DNA from: an uncultured Methanosarcinales archaeon
Lineage (GTDB): Archaea; Nanobdellota; Nanobdellia; Woesearchaeales; CAYZNE01
Assembly: GCA_964405295.1 (NCBI GenBank)
Contig: CAYONI010000002.1
Span: forward strand, 59,133 to 123,132
Length of the DNA stretch: 64,000 nucleotides
Direction of reading: 5' to 3'
The position numbers were made by a program, and so were the translations under genes. The stretch's first letter is position 1. Each line of letters opens with the position of its first letter. Positions 5,029 to 56,412 of the stretch are shown piece after piece. The notes under the pieces are model-generated. The model saw nothing but the letters and a program-made list of their open reading frames with translations. It ran no database searches and was not told the DNA's origin.

Positions 5029-5924
5029 ATTAAAATTCCAATTAAGGGGCTAGTTGCAAGATAATATTTTCTTACAGATGAAGCAAGTCTATGTATAATC
5101 ATATAATCTTTTGTTTCTTTAAATAAAGCTTCTGTCTTTTTGTGAATTAAATCTTTTTCTAAAGCGTGTATTTCTTCAAGAATACTAATATCTTTTTTAG
5201 AATATGCTTTAATTATATCTCTAAGTATTTTTTCTACTTCCTCTACAAATAGAATTATTTTTTTGTTTGAAGCAAAGTTGTTTTTATCAAGCCATTTATT
5301 TATCATAAAAAATTCTCTTTGAGCGTGTATCATAAGAGTTAAGAATGTCCAGAACAATTGGCTATTTCTTTGAAATCTTCTCTTTGTTATTGTTCTTCTA
5401 CAGAAATTATCATATTGTTTTATTCTTTCTTCTACTTCATTATAGTCTTCTTCTATTTCTTTTTTGTTTAATCTTTTTTTAGTTATTTTAATAAGTTCTA
5501 AAGAGTTATAAAATACTTTTTGTAGTAGTACATCAAATTGTCCTGATGAAGGTTCTGTAATACTTTCAATTATGCAAGAATTTTTTTCTTTCTTAGTTAT
5601 TTCAAAGCCCAGTAGGTGTCCTCTTACTGTGTTTCTTATCATTTTAAATTGTTTATCATCATTAAAATTAACTTTTACTTTGTCATAACCTAATCTATAT
5701 GCATTTGTGATAATAGTTCTTACTGCTGATTCAGTTGATTTTTTTATATTAAGAGTTGTTTCTGGTTGTTGCAATGATGATTTTTTTGAATATATTACTA
5801 TGTCTTCTCCAAGTTCATCTACTTCGACACAATCAGTCTCTTTTAGACCTTTTTTGTCCAGCCATTTCTTTGGTAGATAAATTGTAAATCCGCCAAGCCC
5901 TTGTTTTATTAATTTACGTTGCAT
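5025..5924 (-). CDS. AbrB/SpoVT-domain regulator with PhoU-like helical domain
   Basis: N-terminus GGFTIYLPKKWLDKKGLKETDCVEVDELGEDIVI matches a swapped-hairpin AbrB/MazE domain. The rest is helical, as in archaeal AbrB-PhoU architectures. Confidence 0.45.
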   Translation of the reverse strand: MQRKLIKQGLGGFTIYLPKKWLDKKGLKETDCVEVDELGEDIVIYSKKSSLQQPETTLNIKKSTESAVRTIITNAYRLGYDKVKVNFNDDKQFKMIRNTVRGHLLGFEITKKEKNSCIIESITEPSSGQFDVLLQKVFYNSLELIKITKKRLNKKEIEEDYNEVEERIKQYDNFCRRTITKRRFQRNSQLFWTFLTLMIHAQREFFMINKWLDKNNFASNKKIILFVEEVEKILRDIIKAYSKKDISILEEIHALEKDLIHKKTEALFKETKDYMIIHRLASSVRKYYLATSPLIGILI

Positions 5925-42072: not shown

Positions 42073-42112
42073 TTATCTGTATGGAAGTAAAATATCCCTC
42101 CCCCCAGACTTG
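42073..42112. repeat. 40-bp direct repeat, tRNA-proximal copy
   Basis: Spans the tRNA-Tyr T-loop to the discriminator base plus 22 nt of 3' flank. Confidence 0.8.
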
Positions 42113-42220
42113 AACCGGGGACCTTTCGGTTACGGCTGGTTATGTTTCATTTCTGTCCTTTCGGGTTAAGATCGCATAACTTCTACAGCCGAACGCTCTA
42201 GCCAACTGAGCTAGGGAGGG
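42095..42220 (-). tRNA. tRNA-Tyr(GTA) with 52-nt bulge-helix-bulge intron at 37/38
   Basis: Minus-strand cloverleaf read by eye. Acceptor CCCTCCC/GGGAGGG gives C1-G72, the archaeal Tyr identity element. D arm TAGCTCAGTTGGCTAGAGCG; anticodon loop CTGTAGA. The intron 3' end CAGCCG pairs with CGGCTG of the anticodon stem-loop. T arm CCCGGTTCAAGTCTGGG; CCA is not encoded. Confidence 0.8.
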
Positions 42221-45550: not shown

Positions 45551-45625
45551 GGGCCCGTGGCCTAGCTTGGATATGGCGACGGCCTTCTAAGCCGTAGATC
45601 GAGGGTTCGAATCCCCCCGGGCTCA
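45551..45625 (+). tRNA. tRNA-Arg(TCT)
   Basis: 75-nt cloverleaf: acceptor GGGCCCG/CGGGCTC, anticodon stem ACGGC/GCCGT with loop CTTCTAA, T loop TTCGAAT, discriminator A; oligo-T follows. Confidence 0.85.
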
Positions 45626-45702: not shown

Positions 45703-45957
45703 ATGCAATATGATTTAGAGATTCCTAGGATTATAGAAGAAATCAAGAGTAATGATGCAAAGAATGTTCTTTTGCAGTTACCTGATGGTTTGAAACCTAA
45801 AGCAAAGGAAATAGTTGATTCTGTAAGAAAAGAGTTAGATGTAAATTTATTTATTTGGTCTGGTACTAATTTTGGTGCTTGTGATATCCCCTTACATTTA
45901 GAAAAGTTAGGAATTGATTTAATATTGCATTTTGGGCATTCAGAGTTTAAACGATGA
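45703..45957 (+). CDS. dph2: diphthamide synthase Dph2, N-terminal fragment (domain 1) of a split gene
   Basis: NVLLQLPDGLKPKAKEI and NFGACDIPLHLEKLGIDLILHFGHS match the Dph2 N-domain including the first cluster Cys. The stop overlaps the next start (ATGA). Confidence 0.7.
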   Translation: MQYDLEIPRIIEEIKSNDAKNVLLQLPDGLKPKAKEIVDSVRKELDVNLFIWSGTNFGACDIPLHLEKLGIDLILHFGHSEFKR

Positions 45958-46616
45958 AAATAAAATATTTTGAAACAAGATCAAGTATAAGTTTACCTAA
46001 AATAACCCAGGAGTTAATTGATTTAGTTAAAGGTAAATCTGTTGCACTCTTTACAACAGTTCAATTTCTAGAACAAAGAAATAACTTAGCTGTCGATTTA
46101 TTAAAATATTGTAAGATTATTAATATGAAACTTGCTCACTGTAAATATCCTGATCAAATTCTAGGCTGTAGTGCTTTTGATTCTGAAATTCCTGAAAAAC
46201 CTGATTTATTTATCTATCTGGGTGATGGGGTTTTTCATCCAAAATCTCTTGTATTAAAAGATGTCGTAGATGAAGTTTATTGTCTATCACCAATTGATTT
46301 TTCAATTAAGAAGATTATCAAAGAAGATGTTTCAAGTTTAATCAAAAAGAGAAATGGTGCACTAAGTGGATTTGCCATTGCAAAGAATGTTGGTGTTTTA
46401 ATAACAACAAAACCAGGGCAAAACAATTTAAAGAAAGCTTTAGAGTTAAAAACTGATAAGAATATTTATTATTTCTTAGATGATACCATTAATTTTGCAG
46501 AACTTGAAAACTTTAATTTCATAGATTGCTGGGTTAACACTGCTTGTCCAAGAATTGCATATGATGATTTTATTAAGATAGGTAAACCAATTGTTAATTT
46601 AGGTGACTTGCAATGA
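45954..46616 (+). CDS. dph2: diphthamide synthase Dph2, C-terminal fragment (domains 2-3)
   Basis: Contains the remaining conserved Cys residues (LGCSAFD, NTACPRIA). Confidence 0.7.
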   Translation: MKIKYFETRSSISLPKITQELIDLVKGKSVALFTTVQFLEQRNNLAVDLLKYCKIINMKLAHCKYPDQILGCSAFDSEIPEKPDLFIYLGDGVFHPKSLVLKDVVDEVYCLSPIDFSIKKIIKEDVSSLIKKRNGALSGFAIAKNVGVLITTKPGQNNLKKALELKTDKNIYYFLDDTINFAELENFNFIDCWVNTACPRIAYDDFIKIGKPIVNLGDLQ

Positions 46617-47578
46617 ATTTCCTAACTAAAAAGCAAATAATTGAACTTGAGAAGAAGTCTTACGGAATTGTAGGACATTCCTCAGTCCAAATTTGTGAAT
46701 GGAACAAAAAAGCAATTCTTGGTAAAGGAGTTTGCTATAAAGAGAAGTTCTATGATGCACACTGTCATAAGTGTATGCAGTTTACTCCAATAACTATGTG
46801 GTGTGATAATAATTGTATTTTTTGTTGGAGACCAATGGAGTATATGGATTTTGCTTCAGTAAAAGATGTTAAATGGCAGTTGCCTGAAGAATATGTTGAA
46901 CAATTAATAGAAAAAAGAATAAAATTATTGTCTGGGTTTGGCGGAAATGATAAAGCAGACAAAGAAAAATGGAAAGATGCATTAGAGCCAGATCACTATG
47001 CAATTTCCCTAAGTGGTGAGCCAACACTCTACCCTTATCTCCCAGAGCTTGTTAAGTATCTAAAAGAAAAGAAAAAAGCAAGAACTATTTTTATTGTTTC
47101 AAATGGTAATAATCCTGATATGATTCTAAAATTAAAAAAGGAAGATGCTTTGCCTAATCAATTTTATATTTCTGTTAATGGGCCTAATAAAGATTTATTT
47201 AATCAAATAGTTCATTCACACAGAAAAGATGCATGGGAAAGATTTCAGAGATCATTATCTCTGCTAAAAGATTTAAATTGTAGAACCGTTCTAAGAGTTA
47301 CATTAATTAAAGGAATGTCTATGGATGATAAATTAGTAGAACAATATGCTAAACTAATTGAGAATTCTCAAGCAGATTTTATAGAGGTAAAAGCTTATAT
47401 GCACATAGGAATGTCTAGACAAAGGCTTAACATGGATGCAATGCCCTATCATGAAGAAATCAGGGAATATTCAGAAAAGTTACTTAAACTACTTCCCTCA
47501 TATAAATTTGAAGACGAACAGATTGAGTCAAGAATTGTTTTGTTAATGAGAAAAGATTTTAAGACGAGGTATTTCTAA
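46613..47578 (+). CDS. taw1: tRNA 4-demethylwyosine synthase Taw1/TYW1 (radical SAM)
   Basis: GHSSVQICEWNKKAILGKGVCYKEKFY and CDNNCIFCWRP; ATGA overlap with the upstream gene. Confidence 0.8.
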   Translation: MNFLTKKQIIELEKKSYGIVGHSSVQICEWNKKAILGKGVCYKEKFYDAHCHKCMQFTPITMWCDNNCIFCWRPMEYMDFASVKDVKWQLPEEYVEQLIEKRIKLLSGFGGNDKADKEKWKDALEPDHYAISLSGEPTLYPYLPELVKYLKEKKKARTIFIVSNGNNPDMILKLKKEDALPNQFYISVNGPNKDLFNQIVHSHRKDAWERFQRSLSLLKDLNCRTVLRVTLIKGMSMDDKLVEQYAKLIENSQADFIEVKAYMHIGMSRQRLNMDAMPYHEEIREYSEKLLKLLPSYKFEDEQIESRIVLLMRKDFKTRYF

Positions 47579-47602
47579 TGTATCCATATTTTAAGAACAA
47601 AT

Positions 47603-48958
47603 TTAATTAATTTTATTTGTGATCAATCTATTTAATTTTCTTCTAACAATATATGATAAAACGAATGCTGCAATAAATGTCCCTAGCATTAGTCCAAGCC
47701 ATATCCCTATAATTCCTAGATTTAAAATTTTAATAAATAGAAAGAAAAAAGAAATAGGTATGATAAATTGTTTAAATAAAGCTAAAAACATTGGAATAAG
47801 TGGTTTTTTTAGTCCTTGCAATGTTGTTGAATTAATTTGAAATAACATGTGTCCAAAAATTGTTATTGCGCTTATTCTTAATGCAATTATTCCTATTGCT
47901 ATTACTTGAGGGTCTGCAGTAAAAAAAGTTATTAATTGTTTTGCAAAAATAATAATTAGTATTGCACCAGTTAGGATCATATATAACCCATATTTTAATG
48001 ACGTATTTAGTGCTTGTTTTATTCTAGTGTATTTTTTAGCGCCATTATTTTGTCCGCTTATGGCAAGCATTGCCATTCCTAATCCTATTGCCGGTAAACC
48101 TATTATTTGTTCAATTCTTGAGGCAACTCCCCAGGCAGCTATTGCAGCATCTCCAAATGCTTTGAGAAAATACATTAATATTATCATTCCAACTGACATG
48201 ATAATCATGTTAAGACTTGCAGGAAAACCTTGCTTTGCAATATTCTTATAAAATTTAAGGTTAGGTATAACATTTTTTATTTTATCAAAAGAAATTATTT
48301 TAGATTTTATAACTTTAATAAATAAATATATCATTGATAAAAATTGAATAATCACAGTGCATAATGCAATTCCTTTGATGCCCATTGCAGGGAAACCTAA
48401 CCATCCATACATAAAAAAAGGATCTAAAATTAAGTTTAAGAAAAATCCTATAACCAAAGCATTTCTTAAAGATTTAGTATCCCCTATTGACATTAAACCT
48501 GCATTTAAAGTATGGACTAATATGAATAAAGGAGCTCCATATAAAATAATTAATGCATAATCTTTTGCAAGAGCGATTGTTATTACTGTTGCGCCCATAA
48601 ATTTAAGTAAAGGATCAATGAAAGTGAGACCCAATATCATTAAAATAGCTGATATTATTATTGAGAATCCTATTGCTTGCCAAGCATATTTTTTTGCAAT
48701 TTCTTTTTTGTTTTCACCAAGAAAGTTGGATATGAGTGCTGCACTACCAACACTAATGCCATTACCTAAACCTATTATTAACATAAAAATAGGAAATGCC
48801 ATAGTCATTGCAGCTAGTGCTTCAGTAGAAATTAATCCTACATAAAAAGTATCTGTAACATTGAACATTGTTTGAAAGAACATCCCTATGGCTGCAGGTA
48901 TAGCCATGCTTAATATTAATTTAGAAATATTACCTTTTGTAAGATTTTTACCTTTCAT
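47603..48958 (-). CDS. MATE-family efflux transporter
   Basis: 12 TMs; N-terminus LTKGNISKLILSMAIPAAIGMFFQTMFNVTDTFYVG. Confidence 0.85.
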   Translation of the reverse strand: MKGKNLTKGNISKLILSMAIPAAIGMFFQTMFNVTDTFYVGLISTEALAAMTMAFPIFMLIIGLGNGISVGSAALISNFLGENKKEIAKKYAWQAIGFSIIISAILMILGLTFIDPLLKFMGATVITIALAKDYALIILYGAPLFILVHTLNAGLMSIGDTKSLRNALVIGFFLNLILDPFFMYGWLGFPAMGIKGIALCTVIIQFLSMIYLFIKVIKSKIISFDKIKNVIPNLKFYKNIAKQGFPASLNMIIMSVGMIILMYFLKAFGDAAIAAWGVASRIEQIIGLPAIGLGMAMLAISGQNNGAKKYTRIKQALNTSLKYGLYMILTGAILIIIFAKQLITFFTADPQVIAIGIIALRISAITIFGHMLFQINSTTLQGLKKPLIPMFLALFKQFIIPISFFFLFIKILNLGIIGIWLGLMLGTFIAAFVLSYIVRRKLNRLITNKIN

Positions 48959-49015
48959 TATTAGATTTTAGAGTGATTTATTTAAAAAGCTTATAGATTT
49001 TTGTTATGTTAAATT

Positions 49016-49202
49016 TAACATCAGGATTAAGAGAAGTTTCTGGAGCGAATTTGGGAAATTTCAGCAGGAAATTTCCTCTTAATTGCTGTTATGTGTTTTT
49101 TCTGCAAGAAAAAAAGCCGAAGGCTCAGTTATTTTCATGTTAATTAATTTCGTCTGAAGAGAGTCTATATATCCGAAGGACGAGGGGGAGTCCAGATTTT
49201 TT
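49016..49202 (+). repeat. structured intergenic repeat unit A (attC-like imperfect hairpin plus GC-rich 3' module)
   Basis: TTAACATCAGGATTAAGAGAAG ... CTCTTAATTGCTGTTATGT, then CCGAAGGACGAGGGGGAGTCC and an oligo-T; homologous to units B-F. Confidence 0.65.
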
Positions 49203-49240
49203 GTTTCTTTTATTAAAAAAAGAAAGTTTACACTAAGATA

Positions 49241-49320
49241 TTAGGGAGGGATTCGAACCCTCGAACCCACTAAGGGAGCAGATTGGTAATCTGCCGAGTT
49301 TGACCACTTCTCTACCCTCA
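49241..49320 (-). pseudogene. tRNA-like fragment (no valid acceptor stem)
   Basis: Minus strand has a D-arm-like segment and stem-loop GCAGA-TTACCAA-TCTGC. Its T arm GAGGGTTCGAATCCCTC shares a 17-mer TCGAGGGTTCGAATCCC with tRNA-Arg and an 11-mer ATCCCTCCCTA with tRNA-Tyr. The 5' and 3' ends cannot pair. Confidence 0.3.
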
Positions 49321-49348
49321 TATAAAATGTATGAGAATTAACTTGAGG

Positions 49349-49819
49349 TTATATTTTTTCTTCAAATAGTTCAATTAATAAATCATATACAGATTTGAAT
49401 TTTTTAAATCTTTTAGGTTCTTTAATTGATTTTTTTATAAACTCAATGTCCATTTCTTTTATTTTATTAATCATATCTCTACTTAAATTTGGTTTTTTAT
49501 CTTTGTATATTGGCCTGACTTTATGACATCCTAAGAAATCTTCAATTTCTTCTTCATTAAAATAAATAAATTTTTTAAGACCTTCCATTTCTGAGGTTAT
49601 AGTTTTCTCTTTTTTAAAAACATCTGAATCGAAAATAAATATAGTTTCGCTATCGATTCCCTTTAATTGTTGAAATTTTTCATCCATCTTTTGAGATTTA
49701 GTTATGGCATTATTTAAATCTCCTATTGCTTTAGGATGAAATTTTAATGTGTAATTACTGGATACAAATTTATTACCTTTTAAAGCCTTTAAAATAATTT
49801 TTTTCAGAAGGACCTTCAT
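49349..49819 (-). CDS. small partner protein of the AAA_21 ATPase (hypothetical)
   Basis: 156 aa, 20 bp downstream of the ATPase on the same strand; contains ETIFIFDSD acidic motif. Confidence 0.35.
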   Translation of the reverse strand: MKVLLKKIILKALKGNKFVSSNYTLKFHPKAIGDLNNAITKSQKMDEKFQQLKGIDSETIFIFDSDVFKKEKTITSEMEGLKKFIYFNEEEIEDFLGCHKVRPIYKDKKPNLSRDMINKIKEMDIEFIKKSIKEPKRFKKFKSVYDLLIELFEEKI

Positions 49820-49839
49820 AGAAAATGTAAATTACTTTT

Positions 49840-51045
49840 TTAATCTTCTTTATAGACATTTGGGAATCCTCCTAATACACCCTCTCTATAATAATCACCA
49901 TAGTTTTTGTTAATTTTGGGGTTATTCTTGACTATATTATGAAGATTAATTATTTTACTAACAGAATCTTCTTTTTCAATTATATTTATTTGATCACTTC
50001 TTAAATAATTAAGGATTTCTGGTTGATGAGTTGTAAATAATAATTGAGATTTATTGTCTTTTTTTGTAAAGTAATTTATAATAAATTCAACTATTTCAAT
50101 ATTAAAAGATGTTTCAATTTCATCATAAAGTATAATGGAATCCTTATTCAATTTGAATAGTGTGAAAAATAGTAATATGAACTTTTTAGTTCCACTTGAT
50201 TCTCCATTGAAATTTATTTTTAAATCTGCTTTATTGTGTTTATGTATTAAAATTAAATCTGTTACTGGCACTTTTTTTGTGGGTTGTTTTATAATTTCTT
50301 CATTATTTATTTTATATTCAATTTCTTCTCTAACTGATTTAACTAATTCTAAATCTTTTATCGAAAAATCAGCATATGTTAGAACATCTAATAATTCTTC
50401 CTTTAATCCTGAATCTTTTAACAAAGAGAAATCGGGGGGTTGATTAAATAAATTATTCGCTACAAATAGTTTAGTAAAAAAATCATATATTGGTTTTAAT
50501 GTGGCTGAGTTTAATTGCACCGCTCTTGATAACATTAAAGTTTGAGGAATGACACTTTTAGATAATATTTTTAATTCTTTTTCATATTTTCGATTGCTGA
50601 ATTCGAATTTTTTATTAGTTTTATTTTCGTTTCTTAAAAAAATTTCAGTCGGTTTTTGTGTTTGATAAACTACTGCATACTCTTTTATAATTTTTTTATT
50701 AGTATACGAGAATCCATAAATGTATTTTTTATTGTTTGAAAAAAATGTAATCTCAAATTCTGTTGGTTTATCTGGCGTGCTAATAAATGGTGAATATTTT
50801 ATATTTGTATCTATATTATGTTTTTGGGAATTTAAAACCATTTCTTTCATAAAATTTAATGCTGAAAGTAGAGATGTCTTTCCAGATCCATTAACTCCTA
50901 CGAGTCCAGATATTTTTAAAGTATCTATATTATTTTGCTGATTAATAAATTGTTCTCCTCTACTTTCTTTTGATTTTTTTTCAAATTTCAAAATTTCTTC
51001 ATTTTTATATGAATTAAAGTTTTTTAGTTTAAATTCGATTATCAT
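49840..51045 (-). CDS. AAA_21/AAA_15-type ABC-like ATPase (defence-associated family)
   Basis: Walker A GLVGVNGSGKTS, signature-like NGESSGTKKF, Walker B ILYDEIETS, H-loop LLFTTHQPE. Confidence 0.7.
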   Translation of the reverse strand: MIIEFKLKNFNSYKNEEILKFEKKSKESRGEQFINQQNNIDTLKISGLVGVNGSGKTSLLSALNFMKEMVLNSQKHNIDTNIKYSPFISTPDKPTEFEITFFSNNKKYIYGFSYTNKKIIKEYAVVYQTQKPTEIFLRNENKTNKKFEFSNRKYEKELKILSKSVIPQTLMLSRAVQLNSATLKPIYDFFTKLFVANNLFNQPPDFSLLKDSGLKEELLDVLTYADFSIKDLELVKSVREEIEYKINNEEIIKQPTKKVPVTDLILIHKHNKADLKINFNGESSGTKKFILLFFTLFKLNKDSIILYDEIETSFNIEIVEFIINYFTKKDNKSQLLFTTHQPEILNYLRSDQINIIEKEDSVSKIINLHNIVKNNPKINKNYGDYYREGVLGGFPNVYKED

Positions 51046-51261
51046 ATGGTTAAGAAATCAATCAATATATATAAATGTTGTTGTTTTTTACACTAATTTT
51101 GCTTTATCTTTTAGATATTGGCAGTAAATGAGAAAATATTGCAATTTTGTTGTGTTTCATAATTGATTTCGAATAAATTTATTGTGAGCCTAAATGTGTG
51201 TAGCACGGACTCTCCCTCTTTTGGTTCTTTTTCTAAAAGAACATAAAGTGAAAATTCGATT

Positions 51262-51433
51262 GAGTATAACATCGCGATTAAGAGAAGTTTTTGCGAAGCA
51301 AAAATTTGGATGGAAGAAACTGCAAGTTTCTGGAATCTCTTAATCGCTGTTATGTCTGTCGAAACTTGTTTCGACCAAGGGTTAGTGCAACGGTCGGCGA
51401 AGCCGAAACCCGCAGAGTTTTTCTTGAGTCCCG
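51262..51433 (+). repeat. structured intergenic repeat unit B
   Basis: GAGTATAACATCGCGATTAAGAGAAG pairs with TCTCTTAATCGCTGTTATGT (2-nt bulge). Internal hairpin TTTTTGCGAAGCAAAAA, then GTGCAACGG..GCGAAGCCGAAACCC, ending in TTTTTCTTGAGTCCC. Confidence 0.7.
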
Positions 51434-51468
51434 TTAAATATTTAAACTATTAAACTATATAGAGTTAT

Positions 51469-52251
51469 ATGGCAGATATATTATTAACAAATGATGATGG
51501 TTTCTCTTCCCAAGGATTTCTTGTTTTATTAAATGAATTAAAGAAAGAACATAAAGTAATAGGAGTTGCTCCTAAAAATGAACGAAGTTGGATTGGAAAA
51601 TCAATTAGTGCTCATAATGAAGTAATTTTAGAAAAAGTAAAGAGTAATCTTTATTCATTAACAGGAACTCCAGCAGATTGTACTCAGGTAGGAATCTATG
51701 ATGTTTTGAAGAGGAAACCTGATTTGGTTGTTTCAGGAATAAATTTAGGTTTAAATGCTGGACATGGTAGAATTTTAAGTTCAGGAACAATTGGTGCTGC
51801 AATGGAAGCTTCAATTGATGGAGTTAAATCAGTTTCAACTTCTATACATATTCCAATTGAATTGAAAAAAAGTTTAGATTTACATGATAAAAAAAATAGA
51901 AAAATATTCATTAATGCTGCAAAAATAACTTGTAAAGTGATTAAGATTTTTATGAATGCTGATTATGGAACTAGTACTGATCTTTTATCATTAAATATTC
52001 CTTTTGATGCAACAATCGATAGTCCAATTGAAATAACTGTTCCAGATAGACAACCATTAGGGCAGTTATTTTTCAAGAAAGGGAAATTTCACAAACTGAA
52101 GATTCCACCATTATTATTTGAATCTTCTTCAAAGGGAACAGATTTAAGAGCATTATATGAAAATAAAATATCCCTAACTCCTATTAGTTTAGAACTTGTA
52201 TCTAGAAATTCTTTAAAAAACCTTAAAACCATCATTAAAAAGAAGTGGTAG
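51469..52251 (+). CDS. surE: 5'/3'-nucleotidase SurE
   Basis: ILLTNDDGFSSQG N-terminus and overall SurE fold signature. Confidence 0.85.
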   Translation: MADILLTNDDGFSSQGFLVLLNELKKEHKVIGVAPKNERSWIGKSISAHNEVILEKVKSNLYSLTGTPADCTQVGIYDVLKRKPDLVVSGINLGLNAGHGRILSSGTIGAAMEASIDGVKSVSTSIHIPIELKKSLDLHDKKNRKIFINAAKITCKVIKIFMNADYGTSTDLLSLNIPFDATIDSPIEITVPDRQPLGQLFFKKGKFHKLKIPPLLFESSSKGTDLRALYENKISLTPISLELVSRNSLKNLKTIIKKKW

Positions 52252-52260
52252 GGACTCAAG

Positions 52261-52507
52261 AAAAATTAGACATAACATCAGGATTTGGAGAAGTCGTGCG
52301 TAGCACGATTTGGGTGGAGAAGTCTGCAAGACTTTGTAACCTCATAATCCTTGTTAAATCCTTCCGATAGGAACGAGGGATAACTGCAAGTGGTTTTTTG
52401 CGAAGCAAAAAAATCCTGAAGAGTAATATTTTCATTTCTATATCAATATTGAACAAAGCGAGTCTAAATGTCCTTTGGGACTGGGGCTGTTTGTTTTTTA
52501 TCAAAAT
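52261..52507 (+). repeat. structured intergenic repeat unit C
   Basis: Starts GGGACTCAAGAAAAA (inverted copy of unit B's end). CATAACATCAGGATT ... AATCCTTGTTAAAT stem, CTGCAAG boxes, hairpin TTTTTTGCGAAGCAAAAAAA; ends GGGGCTGTTTGTTTT. Confidence 0.7.
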
Positions 52508-52538
52508 CTTTTTATATATTAGATAACTCTTCAAGTTT

Positions 52539-53123
52539 ATGGTTGAATTTACAACAGAAAATCTTGGAAGAATACTTATTAATCGACTTAGAGAAAATAA
52601 TAATTTTGACGAAATATTATCAATAGTGAAAAGCAATTCCAGAGGGAATATTTATCTCGTTGGGGGAACTGTTAGTCGAACTTTAGCTAGTGAGTTATAT
52701 GGTGGAGAACAGAAAAATCAAGATTTTGATTTTGTTGTTGATGTATTAAATAGTGATTTAAAGATTCCAAAAGGTTGGGTGGTTACACACCATAAATTTG
52801 ACAATCCAACATTCAAGAAAGATGATCTTGAAATAGATCTATTTCCGTTATCTGACCACCAATATATCAAAAATAATAAACTGAAACCAACTATTGAAAA
52901 CTTTTTGGCAGGAGTTCCATTTTCAATTCAATCACTCGTTTTTGATATAAAAAATGAAAGATTAATTGGAGATGATGGAATTCAAGCTTTAAAGAATCGT
53001 AAATTCAAAGTTCATAACATAGATTCTGCAAAAGATGTTGCAAAACGTAAAGGAATTTCAATAAATGAACGAATGTTGCAAAAAGCTAAAAGTATGAACT
53101 TTGATATAATTCCATTCGATTAA
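52539..53123 (+). CDS. nucleotidyltransferase-fold (Pol beta superfamily) protein
   Basis: IYLVGGTVSR ... DFDFVVD resembles the hG[GS] ... DxD NTase motif. Confidence 0.4.
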   Translation: MVEFTTENLGRILINRLRENNNFDEILSIVKSNSRGNIYLVGGTVSRTLASELYGGEQKNQDFDFVVDVLNSDLKIPKGWVVTHHKFDNPTFKKDDLEIDLFPLSDHQYIKNNKLKPTIENFLAGVPFSIQSLVFDIKNERLIGDDGIQALKNRKFKVHNIDSAKDVAKRKGISINERMLQKAKSMNFDIIPFD

Positions 53124-53352
53124 AACAAACAGCCCCTTTTTCTAGAAATGAAAATTTTATTGTATATAACATCAGGATTAAGAGAAGTTTTTGCGTAGCA
53201 AAAATTTGGATGGAGCCTGCAAGGAGGAATCTCTAAATCCTTGTTAGTTGGGAAGACTGCAAGTCGACCGACCGAAGGGACAGTTTTTTAATTACTTAAC
53301 TTATATCAATTTCGAACGTAGTGAGTCTATTGTTTAGAAAAAGAGGGGTTTT
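53122..53352 (+). repeat. structured intergenic repeat unit D
   Basis: Starts AAAACAAACAGCCCC (inverted copy of unit C's end). TATAACATCAGGATTAAGAGAAG, hairpin TTTTTGCGTAGCAAAAA, AATCCTTGTTAGTT; ends AAAAAGAGGGGTTTT. Confidence 0.7.
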
Positions 53353-54067
53353 AATTTTTGCCTATATTCCACAACATTTTGAAATATTTTCTGAAAGTAT
53401 CTGCAAATTCTTTTCCATTAATCATTATTGAGATTATTTCGTTCTCATCAAGTTTTCCTATTATTAATTTGTTTTCATAAATTATAAATCCTACTGATGA
53501 AGAGAAATTTTCAGGAAGAAATTTATAATCAATCTTTGTGAAAAAATTTATTCGTTTAGATATTTCTTTTGTTTTTGGTTGAAGTAATTTTATATTCAAT
53601 TTTGAAAATTTATCCTGAATATATTTTGAAAATTTAAAACTTTCAACAAGATGTAAGCCACCACCAATCCAGTAAACTGTTTTATTGGTTTCGATTGCAT
53701 CTTCGAGAATTGTTTTTATTCCTTGTTTTCCCATTATAATATCAACTTTTGTATTATTGAAATTTGTATTTTGAAGGTTTTTGAGTGTGGGCATAATATT
53801 TTCTAAAGTAAATAATTTTTCATCAATTAATTGCCTTAAAGTTTTTACATTATTCGCATTAAAAAATTTAGTTCCCTTAATTATATTATATGTAACTAAT
53901 CCTTTAGTTATTAGAAGTTCTAAGTTATCATAAATAGTTCTTCTATTTATTCCTGTATTTTTTGAAAGTTTTACTGTGCTTTGTTGTGGAACTTTAAGTA
54001 ATGAGATATATATTTTTGATTCTATTTCTCTGAGACCAAGTTTTTTTAATTCGTTTTCTAGTTCCAT
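53351..54067 (-). CDS. TrmB-family transcriptional regulator
   Basis: N-terminal wHTH LGLREIESKIYISLLKVPQQSTVKLSKNTGINRRTIYDNLELLITKGLV. Confidence 0.7.
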   Translation of the reverse strand: MELENELKKLGLREIESKIYISLLKVPQQSTVKLSKNTGINRRTIYDNLELLITKGLVTYNIIKGTKFFNANNVKTLRQLIDEKLFTLENIMPTLKNLQNTNFNNTKVDIIMGKQGIKTILEDAIETNKTVYWIGGGLHLVESFKFSKYIQDKFSKLNIKLLQPKTKEISKRINFFTKIDYKFLPENFSSSVGFIIYENKLIIGKLDENEIISIMINGKEFADTFRKYFKMLWNIGKN

Positions 54068-54155
54068 GTTTATTTAGAATAGCTTTAAATATATAAAGTT
54101 TACGGGGGAATCCCCACACATTGATTTAAATTTGGTTATTAATTGCTACTTTTTA

Positions 54156-54818
54156 ATGGAAAAACATATATTATTTATGCCTGATGGAAATCGAAGATAT
54201 GCGACAAGAGAAAATATTTCTCCGGAAAAAACTTATCAAAAAGGAGCTAAATCATTAGAATTATTTAGCAATTTCTTTCTACTGGAAAATGATTGGACTC
54301 AATTAACCATGCATTTTATGTCAAAATATACCCATGAAAGAGATGATGGAAGTTTAAATCCAATCTATGGTGCTATGATAAAAGAATTTACTTATTTGCA
54401 CGATAGTAGTTATTTTGATAAAAATAAGATTAAATTTCAATGGATTGATCATTCAAGTAAATTGCCTGCTGAGGTTGTGGAAATTTGTCAATCATTAGAA
54501 GAAAAGACAAAAACCGGAGTTAAATTATCTTTAAATTTATTAGGCTATGATTTAGAAACTGACGAAAGAAATGCTTTTGAACAATCAAAGAATTATGATG
54601 AGTTTAAAGCTATTAGACTAATTTCAGATATAGATTTAGTAATTAGAACTACTGAAATGAGACCTTCAAAAGGCCCAGTTTATGCAATGGCTCAATCTCA
54701 AATGTTACTTCTTCAAAAATTAAATCCTGAATTAGAACGTACTGATTTAGAGAAGATATTGCAAGAATATAATAGTTTAGTGGAATATAGGCAAACCACA
54801 AATCCAATTCATAAATAA
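54156..54818 (+). CDS. divergent cis-prenyltransferase (UppS-like) paralog
   Basis: FMPDGNRRYATRE matches the cis-IPTase DGNRR(Y/W)A motif and an IRTT segment is retained, but the C-terminal substrate motifs are degenerate. ATG at 54156 preferred. Confidence 0.5.
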   Translation: MEKHILFMPDGNRRYATRENISPEKTYQKGAKSLELFSNFFLLENDWTQLTMHFMSKYTHERDDGSLNPIYGAMIKEFTYLHDSSYFDKNKIKFQWIDHSSKLPAEVVEICQSLEEKTKTGVKLSLNLLGYDLETDERNAFEQSKNYDEFKAIRLISDIDLVIRTTEMRPSKGPVYAMAQSQMLLLQKLNPELERTDLEKILQEYNSLVEYRQTTNPIHK

Positions 54819-55080
54819 AACCTCTCTTTTTCTTTTGTTAAGTAATTAAGAAATTGCAACTAACATCGGGCTTAAGGGAAGTTCAATTTCCTCGGAAAAA
54901 TTCTCCTCGTGAAACAGAGCTGAGAATTTTTTCAGAGCTGAAATTGAATTTGGGTGTAGTGAGGTGCAACCGAACGAAACCCTTTAAGCCCTATTAGTTT
55001 CGTCCGAATACTTGGAGGACTTGATTTTTAGTGCAACGATGCCGAAGGCAAAAAATCAAAGTCGTGTAGGGGCAAAATTA
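54817..55080 (+). repeat. structured intergenic repeat unit E
   Basis: CTAACATCGGGCTTAAGGGAAG pairs with CCTTTAAGCCCTATTAG (compensatory GGGCTT/AAGCCC relative to AGGATT/AATCCT in other units). GTGCAACCGAACG and GTGCAACGATGCCGAAGG modules; ends GGGGCAAAATTA. Confidence 0.65.
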
Positions 55081-55116
55081 GGAAGGTTTATAAAATACCT
55101 TTAATTCCACTAAATT

Positions 55117-55425
55117 ATGAGAATAGATTATCAACATAACTTGACACAAGAAGAAGCATACGGAAAAATAAATAATCTTTTAACAGATTTACAGAAACAG
55201 TATGCTGATAAAATAAGTAACCCTCAAACAAGTTGGAATTCCGAACATACAAGAATGGATTATAGTATGGAAATTATGGGATTCAAAACTAAAGGACAGG
55301 TTACTTTAAATGATAGTCAAGTTAGTTTAGAAGGAAAACTTCCATTCATGGCTAAAATGTTTAGTGGAAAAATTGAAGCAATGGTTAAAACACAACTAGA
55401 TGATTTACTTGCTTGTGATTTCTGA
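55117..55425 (+). CDS. PHA_gran_rgn-like small protein (polyhydroxyalkanoic-acid-system family)
   Basis: C-terminal VSLEGKLPFMAKMFSGKIEAMVKTQLDDLL resembles the family's conserved tail. Confidence 0.4.
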   Translation: MRIDYQHNLTQEEAYGKINNLLTDLQKQYADKISNPQTSWNSEHTRMDYSMEIMGFKTKGQVTLNDSQVSLEGKLPFMAKMFSGKIEAMVKTQLDDLLACDF

Positions 55426-55433
55426 ATATAATT

Positions 55434-55490
55434 TAATTTTGCCCCGTAACGATTGAGTATAACATATATTAGGCCTAGTTTGTTAGTGCC
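55434..55490 (+). repeat. mini repeat unit F
   Basis: TAATTTTGCCCC (inverted copy of unit E's end), then GAGTATAACAT ... TAGGCCTA ... TTGTTAG hairpin. Confidence 0.5.
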
Positions 55491-55512
55491 TAATTATAGT
55501 TAATATATGCTA

Positions 55513-55531
55513 ATTCGGAAGAATTCCGAAT
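55513..55531. promoter_or_regulatory. hairpin ATTCGGAA-GAA-TTCCGAAT 45 bp upstream of the recombinase gene
   Basis: 8-bp perfect inverted arms with a 3-nt spacer. Confidence 0.35.
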
Positions 55532-55575
55532 GGCTAGGGCTTAATATTATTAAGATTAAGTAGATAACTTCTTAT

Positions 55576-56412
55576 ATGGATTATATGTTAGATGAAGCTA
55601 AAAAACAGGATTATCTGCAGAGAATTGCTGATGAGTGTAAATTAAGGGGTTTTAGCAGGCAAACTTTGAAAGCTTATTCTTATTGGATTGCAAAATATTT
55701 GGATTTTATTATTAAAAATAGGTTTAATTTGGGAAATTCTAGTGTTAGGTATTATTTCCTAAGTTTAGATTTGAGTGTGAATTCTTCAAGATTATGCTAT
55801 GCAGCTCTAAGATTTTTCTTCGCTAATATTCTGAACAGACCTTTTACAACCGATGAAATTCCTATTAAGAAGAAAGAAAAAACTTTGCCTAAAGTATTAT
55901 CTAAGCAACAAATTAAATTAATATTAAATGAAACCAAAAATCTTAAACATAAACTAGTTATTGAGGTGCTTTATTCAACTGGGTTGAGATTGCAAGAATT
56001 AATTAATCTTAAAAGAGCTGATATTGATTTTGATAATAATACTTTGTTTGTTAGAAAAGGCAAAGGTAAGAAGGATAGACTCACAATTATTTCTGAAAAT
56101 ATTAAATTAGATTTATTAAAATATTATAGTCAATACGAATTTAAAACAAATTATGTGTTTGAAGGTAGAAAGGGTAAATATTCTAAAAAGTCTGTTCAAT
56201 TAATTCTACACAATACAAGTAAAAAACTTAAATTTAGAATTCATCCTCATATGTTAAGACACTCTTTTGCAACTCATTTATTAGAGCAGGGAACTGACAT
56301 AAGAATTATACAGAAGCTTCTTGGCCATTCTGATCTTAACACAACAGAAATTTACACAAGAGTTGCAAATAAGAATTTAAAGAAAATCAAGAATCCTCTA
56401 GATAGTATTTAA
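55576..56412 (+). CDS. tyrosine recombinase (XerA/XerC/D family)
   Basis: C-terminal catalytic region HPHMLRHSFATHLLEQGTDIRIIQKLLGHSDLNTTEIYTRV (R..H..R..Y); N-terminal core-binding domain. Confidence 0.85.
   Translation: MDYMLDEAKKQDYLQRIADECKLRGFSRQTLKAYSYWIAKYLDFIIKNRFNLGNSSVRYYFLSLDLSVNSSRLCYAALRFFFANILNRPFTTDEIPIKKKEKTLPKVLSKQQIKLILNETKNLKHKLVIEVLYSTGLRLQELINLKRADIDFDNNTLFVRKGKGKKDRLTIISENIKLDLLKYYSQYEFKTNYVFEGRKGKYSKKSVQLILHNTSKKLKFRIHPHMLRHSFATHLLEQGTDIRIIQKLLGHSDLNTTEIYTRVANKNLKKIKNPLDSI

What the first reader, a model, noticed from the sequence alone, without database searches (positions are those of the whole stretch)
49241..49320. Chimeric tRNA-like fragment at the array boundary
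The minus strand carries a perfect T arm (GAGGG-TTCGAAT-CCCTC), a D-arm-like element with GG, and a 5-bp stem with a 7-nt loop. The 5' and 3' ends cannot form an acceptor stem, and the anticodon would be ACC. Its T arm shares an exact 17-mer with tRNA-Arg(TCT) at 45551, and an 11-mer (ATCCCTCCCTA) with the 5' end of tRNA-Tyr. tRNA fragments at the edges of islands are classic footprints of integrase-mediated insertion. It could also be a split or permuted tRNA half, as seen in some DPANN/nanoarchaeal genomes.
Basis: seen in the sequence. Interest (0 to 1): 0.5.

Follow-up and report, generated by a model that had tools for sequence, protein, structure and literature searches.

The report
Conserved acceptor-less tRNA-like gene in defence cassette
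The flagged sequence is not a chimeric scrap left by an integrase: it is a full-length tRNA look-alike with a broken acceptor stem that has been kept by selection right behind an AbiL-type anti-virus gene pair in several tiny (DPANN-like) archaea, so it is probably a working non-coding RNA rather than a translation tRNA.

Summary
The element is not a fragment. ARAGORN calls it tRNA-Gly(acc), and Rfam's tRNA model matches end to end (38.8 bits, threshold 29). It is collinear with a class II tRNA-Leu: Leu-type D loop, 15-nt variable arm and intact tertiary-contact nucleotides. Only the acceptor stem is defective, with 5 Watson-Crick pairs, a G.A mismatch and one missing base.

Homologues lie 26-45 nt after the RloB-like gene of the same AbiL-type (RloA ATPase plus RloB TOPRIM) pair in three other lineages. 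The anticodon is GCC there. Window versus L037, the tRNA-like is 89% identical. RloB DNA is 59% identical and third codon positions are 51-57%. The anticodon and T stems each carry one compensatory change; acceptor changes are not compensated. The element is absent after the pair in three other lineages and is decaying in one.

No att-type direct repeat was found, and the shared 17-mer and 11-mer are not signs of chimerism. The pair plus tRNA-like forms one cassette of an integron-like array of attC-like hairpin repeats ending at a XerA/IntI-like recombinase.

Best reading: a selected, non-decoding, tRNA-derived RNA at the 3' end of the AbiL cassette. Its function is inferred, not shown.

The parts
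49239..49321 (-). tRNA-like gene. It has a class II (tRNA-Leu-type) body, anticodon ACC (GCC in relatives) and a defective acceptor stem.
   Evidence: ARAGORN. Rfam RF00005 at 38.8 bits. Collinear with Halococcus tRNA-Leu. Homologues in L029, L037-40 and L031/32. Acceptor energies.
49314..49338 (-). Conserved leader palindrome ATTCTCATA-N7-TATGAGGGT. Its 3' arm is tRNA-like positions 1-8, so it competes with the acceptor pairing.
   Evidence: Invariant CTCATA...TATG in all four lineages. RNAalifold predicts this hairpin. The G6->A change in L037 breaks the acceptor pair and turns U.G into U-A here. The A4->G change in L029 keeps a U.G pair.
49215..49225 (-). T-rich run (TTTCTTTTTTT) 14 nt after the tRNA-like 3' end. 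It looks like an archaeal oligo-T terminator and is the 5' arm of a small hairpin with AAAAGAAA.
   Evidence: Read directly from the sequence. Partly conserved in L037.
49113..49238 (-). Non-coding tail of the cassette downstream of the tRNA-like, moderately conserved with L037.
   Evidence: Identity with L037 is 0.75 (first 60 nt) and 0.65 (next 65 nt), falling to 0.27 beyond 49112. It is not shared with L031.
49349..49859 (-). RloB-like (AbiLii, TOPRIM) gene, frameshifted in this lineage. The N-terminal 28 codons lie at 49859-49776; the rest is the 156-aa ORF at 49819-49349.
   Evidence: Homologues hit Pfam RloB PF13707 above its cut-off. Alignment and frame analysis. Identical in six independent assemblies.
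49840..51045 (-). AbiLi/RloA-like ABC ATPase (AAA_21).
   Evidence: Pfam AAA_21 at 1.8e-29. PADLOC AbiLi at 1.5e-62. Homologues at 45-75% identity in DPANN metagenome-assembled genomes.
49004..49100 (+). attC-like imperfect palindromic repeat that bounds the cassette on the tRNA-like side.
   Evidence: Repeat families D1-D4 and D18. Five copies, none expected by chance. Single-stranded DNA hairpin fold. Homology between L037 and the window stops at 49113.
51246..51355 (+). attC-like repeat that bounds the cassette on the AbiLi side.
   Evidence: In one search the fold energy is -24 kcal/mol with z = -5.5. The homology block with L031 starts inside it, at 51288.

Best explanation
WHAT IT IS (shown). 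The element is a complete tRNA-derived gene with a class II, tRNA-Leu-type body. Its D, anticodon, variable and T arms are intact, and the usual tertiary-contact nucleotides are present. Its acceptor stem is degenerate, so it cannot be a normal aminoacylated tRNA. It is the last element, on the same strand, of an AbiL-type defence operon: RloA-like ATPase, RloB-like TOPRIM protein, then 26-45 nt, then the tRNA-like. This unit is one cassette of an integron-like array in a ~30% GC DPANN-type archaeon. The unit recurs in at least four lineages with different flanking genes. The tRNA-like is its best-conserved segment, and its internal stems change by compensation.

HOW IT WORKS (inferred). It is probably co-transcribed with the operon and folds into the L-shaped tRNA core. 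It then serves as a structured 3' module of the transcript, either as a processing or stability element or as a released small RNA, and not as a decoder. A leader hairpin that sequesters positions 1-8 and an oligo-T run 14 nt downstream would delimit it. In the window lineage the RloB gene is frameshifted and the anticodon reads ACC instead of GCC, so this copy may be drifting.
For: - Full-length tRNA match and collinearity with tRNA-Leu.
- Homologues directly after RloB in L029, in L037-40 from four samples, and in L031/32. The covariance model finds all of them.
- Selection. Window versus L037, the tRNA-like is 0.89 identical. AbiLi DNA is 0.74, RloB DNA 0.59, the spacer 0.58 and third codon positions 0.51-0.57.
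- Compensatory changes: C28-G42 to U-A, and A50-U64 to C-G. All D, anticodon and variable-arm pairs are kept.
- The acceptor is not maintained. The G3.A70 mismatch is found in every copy that has its 3' end. G6->A is uncompensated in L037, and A1.C72 appears in L031. Duplex energy is -5.2 kcal/mol in the window and -0.1 in L037, against about -12 to -13.6 for real tRNAs. Infernal drops the acceptor in L037.
- The flanks outside the unit differ among lineages.
Against: - There are only four distinct sequences, one of them truncated. Two compensatory pairs are not statistically decisive: 44 of 500 shuffles do as well.
- RNAalifold also finds an alternative fold in which GGUAGA (positions 6-11) pairs with the 3' strand of the anticodon stem. 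That fold is equally compatible with the C28/G42 change.
- The element is dispensable. It is absent after the pair in L033-35, L030 and L044.
- In L031/32 it is degraded, with a 2-nt deletion in the anticodon loop and T-stem mismatches, although RloA and RloB are intact there.
- There are no expression data, and no promoter can be assigned with confidence.
Confidence: 0.45

Rival explanations
1. tRNA mimic that engages the defence nuclease. The tRNA-like would be a third, RNA component of the AbiL/RloAB system. It would be a decoy, inhibitor or regulator bound or cleaved by the RloB TOPRIM protein, by analogy with PARIS, whose TOPRIM effector cleaves a host tRNA and is neutralised by a variant tRNA.
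For: - Strict adjacency and shared strand with RloB in four lineages.
- Selection on the tRNA core but not on the acceptor.
- AbiL is grouped with PARIS as an ATPase plus TOPRIM system, PARIS AriB degrades tRNA-Lys, and a phage tRNA-Lys rescues infection (PMC11464382, PMC13064643).
Against: - Intact RloA/RloB pairs exist without it (L033-35, L044, probably L030) and with a degraded copy (L031). It therefore cannot be an essential antitoxin.
- The anticodon loop, a likely recognition site, varies: A34 in the window and a 2-nt deletion in L031.
- No RNA partner is described for AbiL (PMC13064643).
- The target of RloB is unknown.
Confidence: 0.2
2. Hitch-hiking relic. It would be a tRNA-Leu-like gene captured or truncated when the cassette formed. 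It would now be a slowly decaying pseudogene with no function, whose conservation reflects recent exchange of the cassette's 3' part.
For: - Broken acceptor stem.
- Anticodon change in the window, and an indel plus mismatches in L031.
- Absence from several related modules.
- The next 60 nt are also fairly conserved with L037 (0.75), which could indicate a younger shared segment.
- tRNA finders are known to over-call non-canonical tRNA pieces near mobile DNA (PMC9897764).
Against: - The identity peak (0.89) is confined to the tRNA-like. It is flanked by 0.58 upstream and 0.75 falling to 0.65 downstream.
- Synonymous sites in the adjacent genes are near saturation.
- Changes in the stems are compensatory, and the tertiary-contact nucleotides are kept, except that G18 or G19 reads A in L029 and L031.
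Confidence: 0.2
3. It would be a chimeric tRNA fragment left by integrase-mediated insertion into a tRNA gene (an att-site footprint).
For: - It lies in a variable 8.8-kb region that ends at a tyrosine recombinase gene.
- Homology between L037 and L031 stops exactly at the tRNA-like 3' end.
- It shares an 11-mer with the 5' edge of tRNA-Tyr.
Against: - It is full length and collinear with tRNA-Leu.
- No direct repeat of any third of it, at up to 3 mismatches, occurs in the window. Nothing above shuffled background lies upstream of AbiLi in the window, L037 or L031.
- The recombinase is 6.3 kb away, beyond four repeat-bounded cassettes.
- The boundaries of the mobile units are the attC-like repeats, not the tRNA-like.
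- The 11-mer is not conserved in homologues.
Confidence: 0.05
4. A genuine decoding tRNA-Gly of unusual build, or a split or permuted tRNA whose acceptor is completed by another RNA or by unusual processing.
For: - ARAGORN and Rfam call it a tRNA.
- The anticodon is GCC or ACC, both Gly, in all copies.
- DPANN archaea are known for split tRNAs (established knowledge).
Against: - The acceptor is not maintained.
- The class II Leu-type body conflicts with Gly identity.
- A34 is not a usable wobble base in archaea, which lack an A34 deaminase (established knowledge).
- There is a 2-nt anticodon-loop deletion in L031.
- The gene is missing from related modules.
- Both tRNA halves are contiguous, so no partner half is needed.
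Confidence: 0.05

Closest known systems
Non-canonical or pseudo-tRNA genes next to mobile DNA, e.g. B. cereus tRNA-Other (PMC3399842) and mis-called tRNA fragments in Thermococcaceae (PMC9897764)
   Same: It is a tRNA-shaped gene that gene finders call a tRNA, that does not look fit for translation, and that lies in horizontally mobile DNA. tRNA-Other shows that such genes can have non-translational functions.
   Different: It is not a truncated att remnant. It is full length, lies inside a cassette directly behind a defence operon, is conserved across lineages with compensatory changes, and lacks specifically the acceptor stem.
PARIS (AriA ATPase + AriB TOPRIM) and its interplay with tRNAs (PMC11464382)
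   Same: The neighbouring genes belong to the same ATPase plus TOPRIM super-group (AbiL/RloAB), and a tRNA-shaped RNA is genetically linked to the system.
   Different: In PARIS the tRNA is the host target, and the rescuing tRNA is encoded by the phage. No tRNA-like gene is part of PARIS or of described AbiL systems. The target of RloB is unknown.
tRNA-like processing elements at mRNA ends (plant mitochondrial t-elements; mascRNA at the MALAT1 3' end). Named from established knowledge, not tested here.
   Same: It is a tRNA-shaped fold placed directly after a coding region on the same strand, where it could define or protect the transcript's 3' end.
   Different: Those elements rely on an acceptor/T minihelix for RNase P and RNase Z cleavage. 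Here the acceptor is the one part that is not maintained. None has been described in archaeal defence cassettes.
Archaeal integron gene cassettes (PMC9668308)
   Same: The context matches: an array of genes separated by similar imperfect-palindrome repeats that fold as single-stranded hairpins with ..TAAC/GTTA.. ends, beside a XerA/IntI-like tyrosine recombinase. Defence and toxin cassettes are common in such arrays.
   Different: The recombinase scores below the curated integron-integrase cut-off and lies on the same strand as most cassette ORFs. Cassettes with a tRNA-like gene have not been described, to my knowledge.

Membership tests
Canonical tRNA (Rfam RF00005; decoding tRNA-Gly) | Cloverleaf core with D, anticodon and T arms and conserved tertiary nucleotides (U8, A14, G18/G19, G53-C61, T loop TTCRAAT) | tested here: met
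   RF00005 scores 38.8 bits (gathering score 29) in the window and 38.2 bits in L037. ARAGORN calls it in the window and in L037-40.
Canonical tRNA (Rfam RF00005; decoding tRNA-Gly) | Stable 7-bp acceptor stem maintained in evolution | tested here: not met
   The window has 5 Watson-Crick pairs, a G.A mismatch and one deleted base. Helix cells are 72% paired, with no compensation. Duplex energy is -5.2 kcal/mol in the window and -0.1 in L037, against -11.9 to -13.6 for real tRNAs. Infernal aligns only model positions 7-64 in L037.
Canonical tRNA (Rfam RF00005; decoding tRNA-Gly) | Body consistent with the isotype (archaeal tRNA-Gly is class I with a short variable loop; G34 for GGY codons) | tested here: not met
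   The variable arm is 15 nt, and the best archaeal match is tRNA-Leu(UAA). Position 34 is A in the window and G in relatives. The isotype rules come from established knowledge.
Canonical tRNA (Rfam RF00005; decoding tRNA-Gly) | Aminoacylation and use on the ribosome | not testable with these tools
   Needs tRNA-seq or acylation assays.
Integrase att-site tRNA remnant | Only part of a tRNA is present (usually the 3' portion) | tested here: not met
   It is collinear with tRNA-Leu from position 1 to the discriminator, and the full Rfam model 1-71 is matched.
Integrase att-site tRNA remnant | Direct repeat of the tRNA segment at the other end of the inserted element | tested here: not met
   Each third of the element, at up to 3 mismatches, matches only itself in the 64-kb window. 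Local alignments to the 600-900 nt upstream of AbiLi in the window, L037 and L031 do not exceed shuffled controls.
Integrase att-site tRNA remnant | Integrase gene adjacent to the tRNA-side junction | tested here: not met
   The nearest tyrosine recombinase is at 55576-56412, 6.3 kb away and beyond four repeat-bounded cassettes.
Split or permuted archaeal tRNA half | Gene encodes only a 5' or 3' half, with a complementary leader or trailer that forms a bulge-helix-bulge motif with its partner | tested here: not met
   Both halves are contiguous. The conserved leader forms a plain intramolecular hairpin with positions 1-8 and has no bulges. The genome could not be searched for a partner.
AbiL / RloAB ATPase + TOPRIM defence pair (context of the element) | AAA_15/21 ABC ATPase followed by an RloB-like TOPRIM protein | tested here: met
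   PADLOC AbiLi at 1.5e-62 and Pfam AAA_21. The partner in L037, L031 and L033 hits Pfam RloB PF13707 above its cut-off. The window copy of RloB is frameshifted.
AbiL / RloAB ATPase + TOPRIM defence pair (context of the element) | Protection against viruses | not testable with these tools
   No experimental host. The mechanism of AbiL is itself unknown (PMC13064643).
Integron cassette array (context of the element) | Genes separated by attC sites, i.e. similar imperfect palindromes with R''/R' (..YAAC / GTTR..) ends that fold as single-stranded DNA | tested here: met
   Five same-strand copies lie only between 49.0 and 54.9 kb, with none expected by chance. Four copies have an outer stem TAACA/TGTTA, a 2-nt gap, and then the stem GATTAAGAG/CTCTTAATC; the copy at 54.9 kb keeps only the left (R''/L'') box and folds differently. 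All five have z from -2.5 to -5.5. No dedicated attC model (HattCI or IntegronFinder) could be run.
Integron cassette array (context of the element) | Integron integrase (IntI) with its specific extra domain | tested here: inconclusive
   NCBIfam XerA_Arch ('tyrosine recombinase/integron integrase') scores 217.3 bits against a cut-off of 220. TIGR02249 integron integrase scores 186.4 against 265, in two stretches.
Integron cassette array (context of the element) | Cassettes move as units between genomes | tested here: met
   L025 shares only the SurE unit (51410-52260) with the window. The AbiL unit is shared with L037 up to 49113 and with L031 from 51288, that is, up to or into the flanking repeats. 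L008 has 2.2 kb of other genes in place of 47578-56408.

The most novel reading that the evidence does not exclude
The tRNA-like RNA is a previously unrecognised third (RNA) component of an archaeal AbiL/RloAB ATPase-TOPRIM defence cassette. It would be a tRNA mimic without an acceptor stem that binds, buffers or regulates the RloB nuclease. That would imply that RloB-type effectors act on tRNAs, as PARIS AriB does.
Probability: 0.2. Interest if true: 0.75.

Novelty: new variant of a known kind. Interest (0 to 1): 0.5.

Why it matters
AbiL/RloAB is a widespread ATPase plus TOPRIM defence pair whose mechanism is unknown. A tRNA-shaped RNA that travels with it and is kept by selection gives a concrete, testable lead: either these nucleases deal with tRNAs, or tRNA folds are reused as transcript-end modules in archaeal mobile cassettes.

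It is also a practical warning. Gene finders will annotate this element as tRNA-Gly in DPANN genomes, which would distort tRNA-set and codon-usage inferences for organisms with very small genomes.

The surrounding integron-like array, which carries even housekeeping-type genes (SurE, UppS) as cassettes, adds to the still small record of archaeal integrons.

Tried and rejected
- One metagenome-contig scan with a loops-fixed pattern (GGTCAAA-N9-TTACCAA-N20-30-TTCGAAT) returned five chance hits in coding sequence. It did not return the source organism's own contig, so it says little.
- Three viral contigs DNA patterns found nothing.
- A viral contigs protein scan with the single AbiLi sequence failed. 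With an alignment it found one locus, L044, which has no tRNA-like.
- The genome-contig scan with Taw1 found the nearest relatives, at 72-84% amino-acid identity. Synteny breaks right after Taw1, so they were uninformative for the element itself.
- Lookups of SurE orthologues gave no tRNA-like. They did reveal cassette-wise mobility.
- blastn against the phage collection gave no match.
- The minimum-free-energy fold of the element alone is not a cloverleaf and is no better than shuffled sequences (z = -0.88). This is common for tRNAs and was not used as evidence.
- The Rfam hits to Plastid-psbI-rps4 and PVT1_3 are sub-threshold noise caused by the T arm.
- The P0131 lookup found no record.
- The covariance model R1 found no further copies in 328 kb of held loci.

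Full report
OBSERVATION

ARAGORN calls an 86-nt tRNA-Gly(acc) at 49237-49322. Infernal matches Rfam's tRNA model over all 71 positions at 38.8 bits, against a gathering score of 29. The only defects are in the acceptor stem:
- a G3.A70 mismatch;
- one 3'-strand base missing, so either the acceptor has 6 positions or the T stem has 4 pairs.

The acceptor adds only -1.5 kcal/mol to the cloverleaf. As a duplex it is worth -5.2 kcal/mol, against -11.9 to -13.6 for the window's tRNA-Arg and tRNA-Tyr and for a Halococcus tRNA-Leu.

The shared 17-mer (tRNA-Arg T arm) and 11-mer (5' edge of tRNA-Tyr) exist. The first is the near-universal T arm. The second is not conserved in homologues.

ORGANISM AND NEIGHBOURS

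The window has ~30% GC. It encodes archaeal markers: Dph2, the wyosine enzyme Taw1, SurE and an HTH_10 regulator. It also holds a tRNA-Tyr with a 55-nt intron. Named relatives of its proteins are Nanoarchaeota, Woesearchaeota, Diapherotrites and Aenigmarchaeota metagenome-assembled genomes, so a DPANN-type archaeon is likely.

On the same strand, upstream of the tRNA-like, lie two genes:
- A 401-aa AAA_21 ATPase. It matches PADLOC AbiLi at 1.5e-62 and also the AriA, PtuA and GajA ATPase models.
- A small ORF whose homologues hit Pfam RloB above its cut-off.

Together these form an AbiL/RloAB-type ATPase plus TOPRIM pair.

In the window the RloB gene carries a +1 frameshift. The N-terminal 28 codons are MSIKKIKKVIYIFYEGPSEKNYF|KGFKR*, and the remainder lies in another frame. 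The sequence is identical in six independent assemblies.

HOMOLOGUES

Looking up contigs that encode relatives of RloB and AbiLi gave the key result. A homologous tRNA-like follows the RloB stop codon by 26-45 nt in three further lineages:
- L029: RloB 70% amino-acid identity; the contig ends inside the T stem.
- L037-L040: four samples; AbiLi 74%, RloB about 50%; ARAGORN calls tRNA-Gly(gcc).
- L031/L032: a Woesearchaeota metagenome-assembled genome on a 620-kb contig.

A covariance model built from these sequences recovers all of them and nothing else in 328 kb of held loci.

The element is absent after the pair in:
- L033-35, Aenigmarchaeota, where the pair is inserted in a NAD-biosynthesis cluster;
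- L030;
- L044, an IMG/VR contig.

SELECTION

| Segment (window vs L037) | Nucleotide identity |
|---|---|
| AbiLi | 0.74 |
| RloB | 0.59 |
| Spacer | 0.58 |
| tRNA-like | 0.89 |
| Next 60 nt | 0.75 |
| Next 65 nt | 0.65 |
| Beyond 49112 | 0.27 |

Third codon positions are only 0.51-0.57 identical. The tRNA-like is therefore the best-conserved stretch of the unit, at a divergence where silent sites are near saturation.

Evidence from the stems:
- The anticodon stem has C28-G42 changed to U-A, and the T stem has A50-U64 changed to C-G.
- All D, anticodon and variable-arm cells remain paired.
- In the acceptor, G3.A70 is mismatched in every copy that has its 3' end. G6->A (L037) and U72->C (L031) are uncompensated. 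Infernal drops the acceptor from its L037 alignment.
- The anticodon is GCC in three lineages and ACC only in the window.

The L031 copy has a 2-nt deletion in the anticodon loop and T-stem mismatches. Against L037 it evolves no more slowly than the neighbouring genes (0.86 versus 0.86-0.91), so it appears to be decaying there.

Two cautions apply. There are only four distinct sequences, and 44 of 500 shuffles reach the observed covariation. An alternative pairing, of GGUAGA at positions 6-11 with the 3' strand of the anticodon stem, also fits the data.

ORIGIN

The best archaeal match in the plasmid collection is a Halococcus tRNA-Leu(UAA). The alignment is collinear from end to end. GCGAGGG aligns with AUGAGGG, the variable arm UCCCGUAGGGGUUC aligns with UCCCUUAGUGGGUUC, and CCCCUCGCA aligns with -CCCUAAUA.

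The element is therefore a whole tRNA-Leu-type gene that acquired a Gly anticodon and lost acceptor integrity. It is not a mosaic of tRNA-Arg and tRNA-Tyr pieces.

A conserved leader palindrome, ATTCTCATA(T)-N4-7-(A)TATGAGGGT, overlaps positions 1-8. The substitutions that damage the acceptor (G6->A in L037) or alter it (A4->G in L029) keep or improve this hairpin. This fits an RNA whose 5' strand is not used as an acceptor.

An oligo-T run lies 14 nt downstream.

MOBILE CONTEXT

No direct repeat of any part of the element occurs elsewhere in the window. Nothing above shuffled background lies upstream of AbiLi in three lineages. The att-footprint reading therefore fails.

Instead, a ~100-nt imperfect palindrome occurs five times, on one strand, only between 49.0 and 54.9 kb. 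One copy lies between each gene or gene group:
- Four of the five copies fold as single-stranded DNA into a TAACA/TGTTA outer stem, a 2-nt gap and a GATTAAGAG/CTCTTAATC inner stem around a variable tip. This resembles integron attC sites. The copy at 54.9 kb keeps only the left box.
- The array ends at a 278-aa tyrosine recombinase at 55576-56412. It scores just under NCBIfam's archaeal 'XerA/integron integrase' cut-off (217 against 220). It is below the bacterial IntI cut-off.

Comparisons with relatives support cassette-wise mobility:
- The nearest relative, L008, is collinear with the window up to 47577 and again from 56408. It has 2.2 kb of other genes in place of these 8.8 kb.
- L025 shares only the SurE unit.
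- Homology between the window and L037 stops at 49113, next to the repeat at 49004-49100. Homology with L031 starts inside the repeat at 51288.

The AbiLi-RloB-tRNA-like unit therefore behaves as one cassette of an integron-like array. Archaeal integrons, including some in Nanoarchaeota and often carrying toxin or defence cassettes, have been described (PMC9668308).

The break in homology between L037 and L031 exactly at the tRNA-like 3' end is the one observation that still hints at recombination at this element.

INTERPRETATION

Shown: a full-length, acceptor-defective, tRNA-Leu-derived gene. It is linked to and co-oriented with an AbiL-type pair inside a mobile cassette. It is conserved more strongly than its protein-coding neighbours, and its internal stems are preserved.

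Inferred: it is co-transcribed with the operon and works as a folded RNA. It could be a 3' processing or stability module, or less probably a tRNA mimic that interacts with the RloB nuclease.

The second idea draws on PARIS, a related ATPase plus TOPRIM system. PARIS cleaves tRNA-Lys and is neutralised by a phage tRNA (PMC11464382). AbiL's own mechanism is unknown, and it is described as a two-protein system (PMC13064643).

That the element is missing or degraded next to intact pairs argues against an essential antitoxin role. A neutral relic remains possible but fits the identity profile poorly.

Decoding tRNA-Gly, split-tRNA half and integrase footprint are each contradicted by tested features.

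VERDICT

It is wrong on chimerism, fragment status, att footprint and split tRNA.

Novelty: a new variant of a known kind (non-canonical tRNA-like genes in mobile DNA). Interest is moderate, 0.5. It would be higher if the RNA proves to be a functional partner of the defence pair.

Noticed in passing
window 49004-49100, 51246-51355, 52265-52356, 53146-53246, 54853-54960; recombinase 55576-56412 (+): This looks like an integron-like cassette array. Five same-strand ~100-nt imperfect palindromes have attC-like ..TAAC/GTTA.. ends and a conserved inner stem, and they separate these units: MatE; AbiL plus the tRNA-like; SurE; a 194-aa ORF; TrmB plus UppS; and a PHA-granule-like ORF. A XerA/IntI-like tyrosine recombinase sits at the end. 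Housekeeping-type genes (SurE, UppS) appear to be cassettes. Similar repeats occur in L036.
   Followed up: partly
window 49776-49859 and 49349-49819 (-): The RloB-like TOPRIM gene carries a +1 frameshift (an extra G in ...TATTTTAAAGGCTTT...) after its catalytic EG..SE motif. The frameshift is identical in six independent assemblies, so the AbiL pair is probably inactive in this lineage.
   Followed up: yes
window 47578-56408 versus L008 8074-10245: The nearest relative (83% amino-acid identity) is collinear on both sides but has 2.2 kb of unrelated genes in place of this 8.8-kb stretch. The right breakpoint coincides with the stop codon of the recombinase gene.
   Followed up: partly
window 42095-42220 (-): A tRNA-Tyr with a 55-nt intron is found by Rfam (47.4 bits) but missed by ARAGORN. 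L008 has the same gene.
   Followed up: no
window 45703-45957 and 45954-46616 (+); L008 6133-7112: The diphthamide synthase Dph2 is encoded as two overlapping ORFs (84 aa and 220 aa) in the window. L008 shows a similar split (106-aa and 220-aa ORFs), so this may be a natural split gene. L008 also has a tRNA-Cys(GCA) between tRNA-Arg and Dph2 that the window lacks.
   Followed up: no
window 49113-49238 (-); L037 2430-2555: The non-coding stretch after the tRNA-like is conserved with L037 (AAAAAATCTGGACTCCC, TTCAGAC, ATATAGAC, and a CTTCGG hairpin followed by a T run at 49114-49126). This could be a second small RNA or a regulatory region.
   Followed up: no
L033/L034/L035 5001-6657: In Aenigmarchaeota metagenome-assembled genomes the same AbiLi-RloB pair, without the tRNA-like, is inserted inside a NAD-biosynthesis gene cluster (nadA, nadC ... 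aspartate dehydrogenase, nadE, NMNAT). This shows that the pair moves on its own.
   Followed up: no
L044 (IMGVR_UViG_3300037851_000436) 4001-5694: An AbiLi homologue (61% identity) lies on a contig classed as viral. It is followed by two short ORFs where RloB would be expected (not checked for homology to RloB), and there is no tRNA-like.
   Followed up: no
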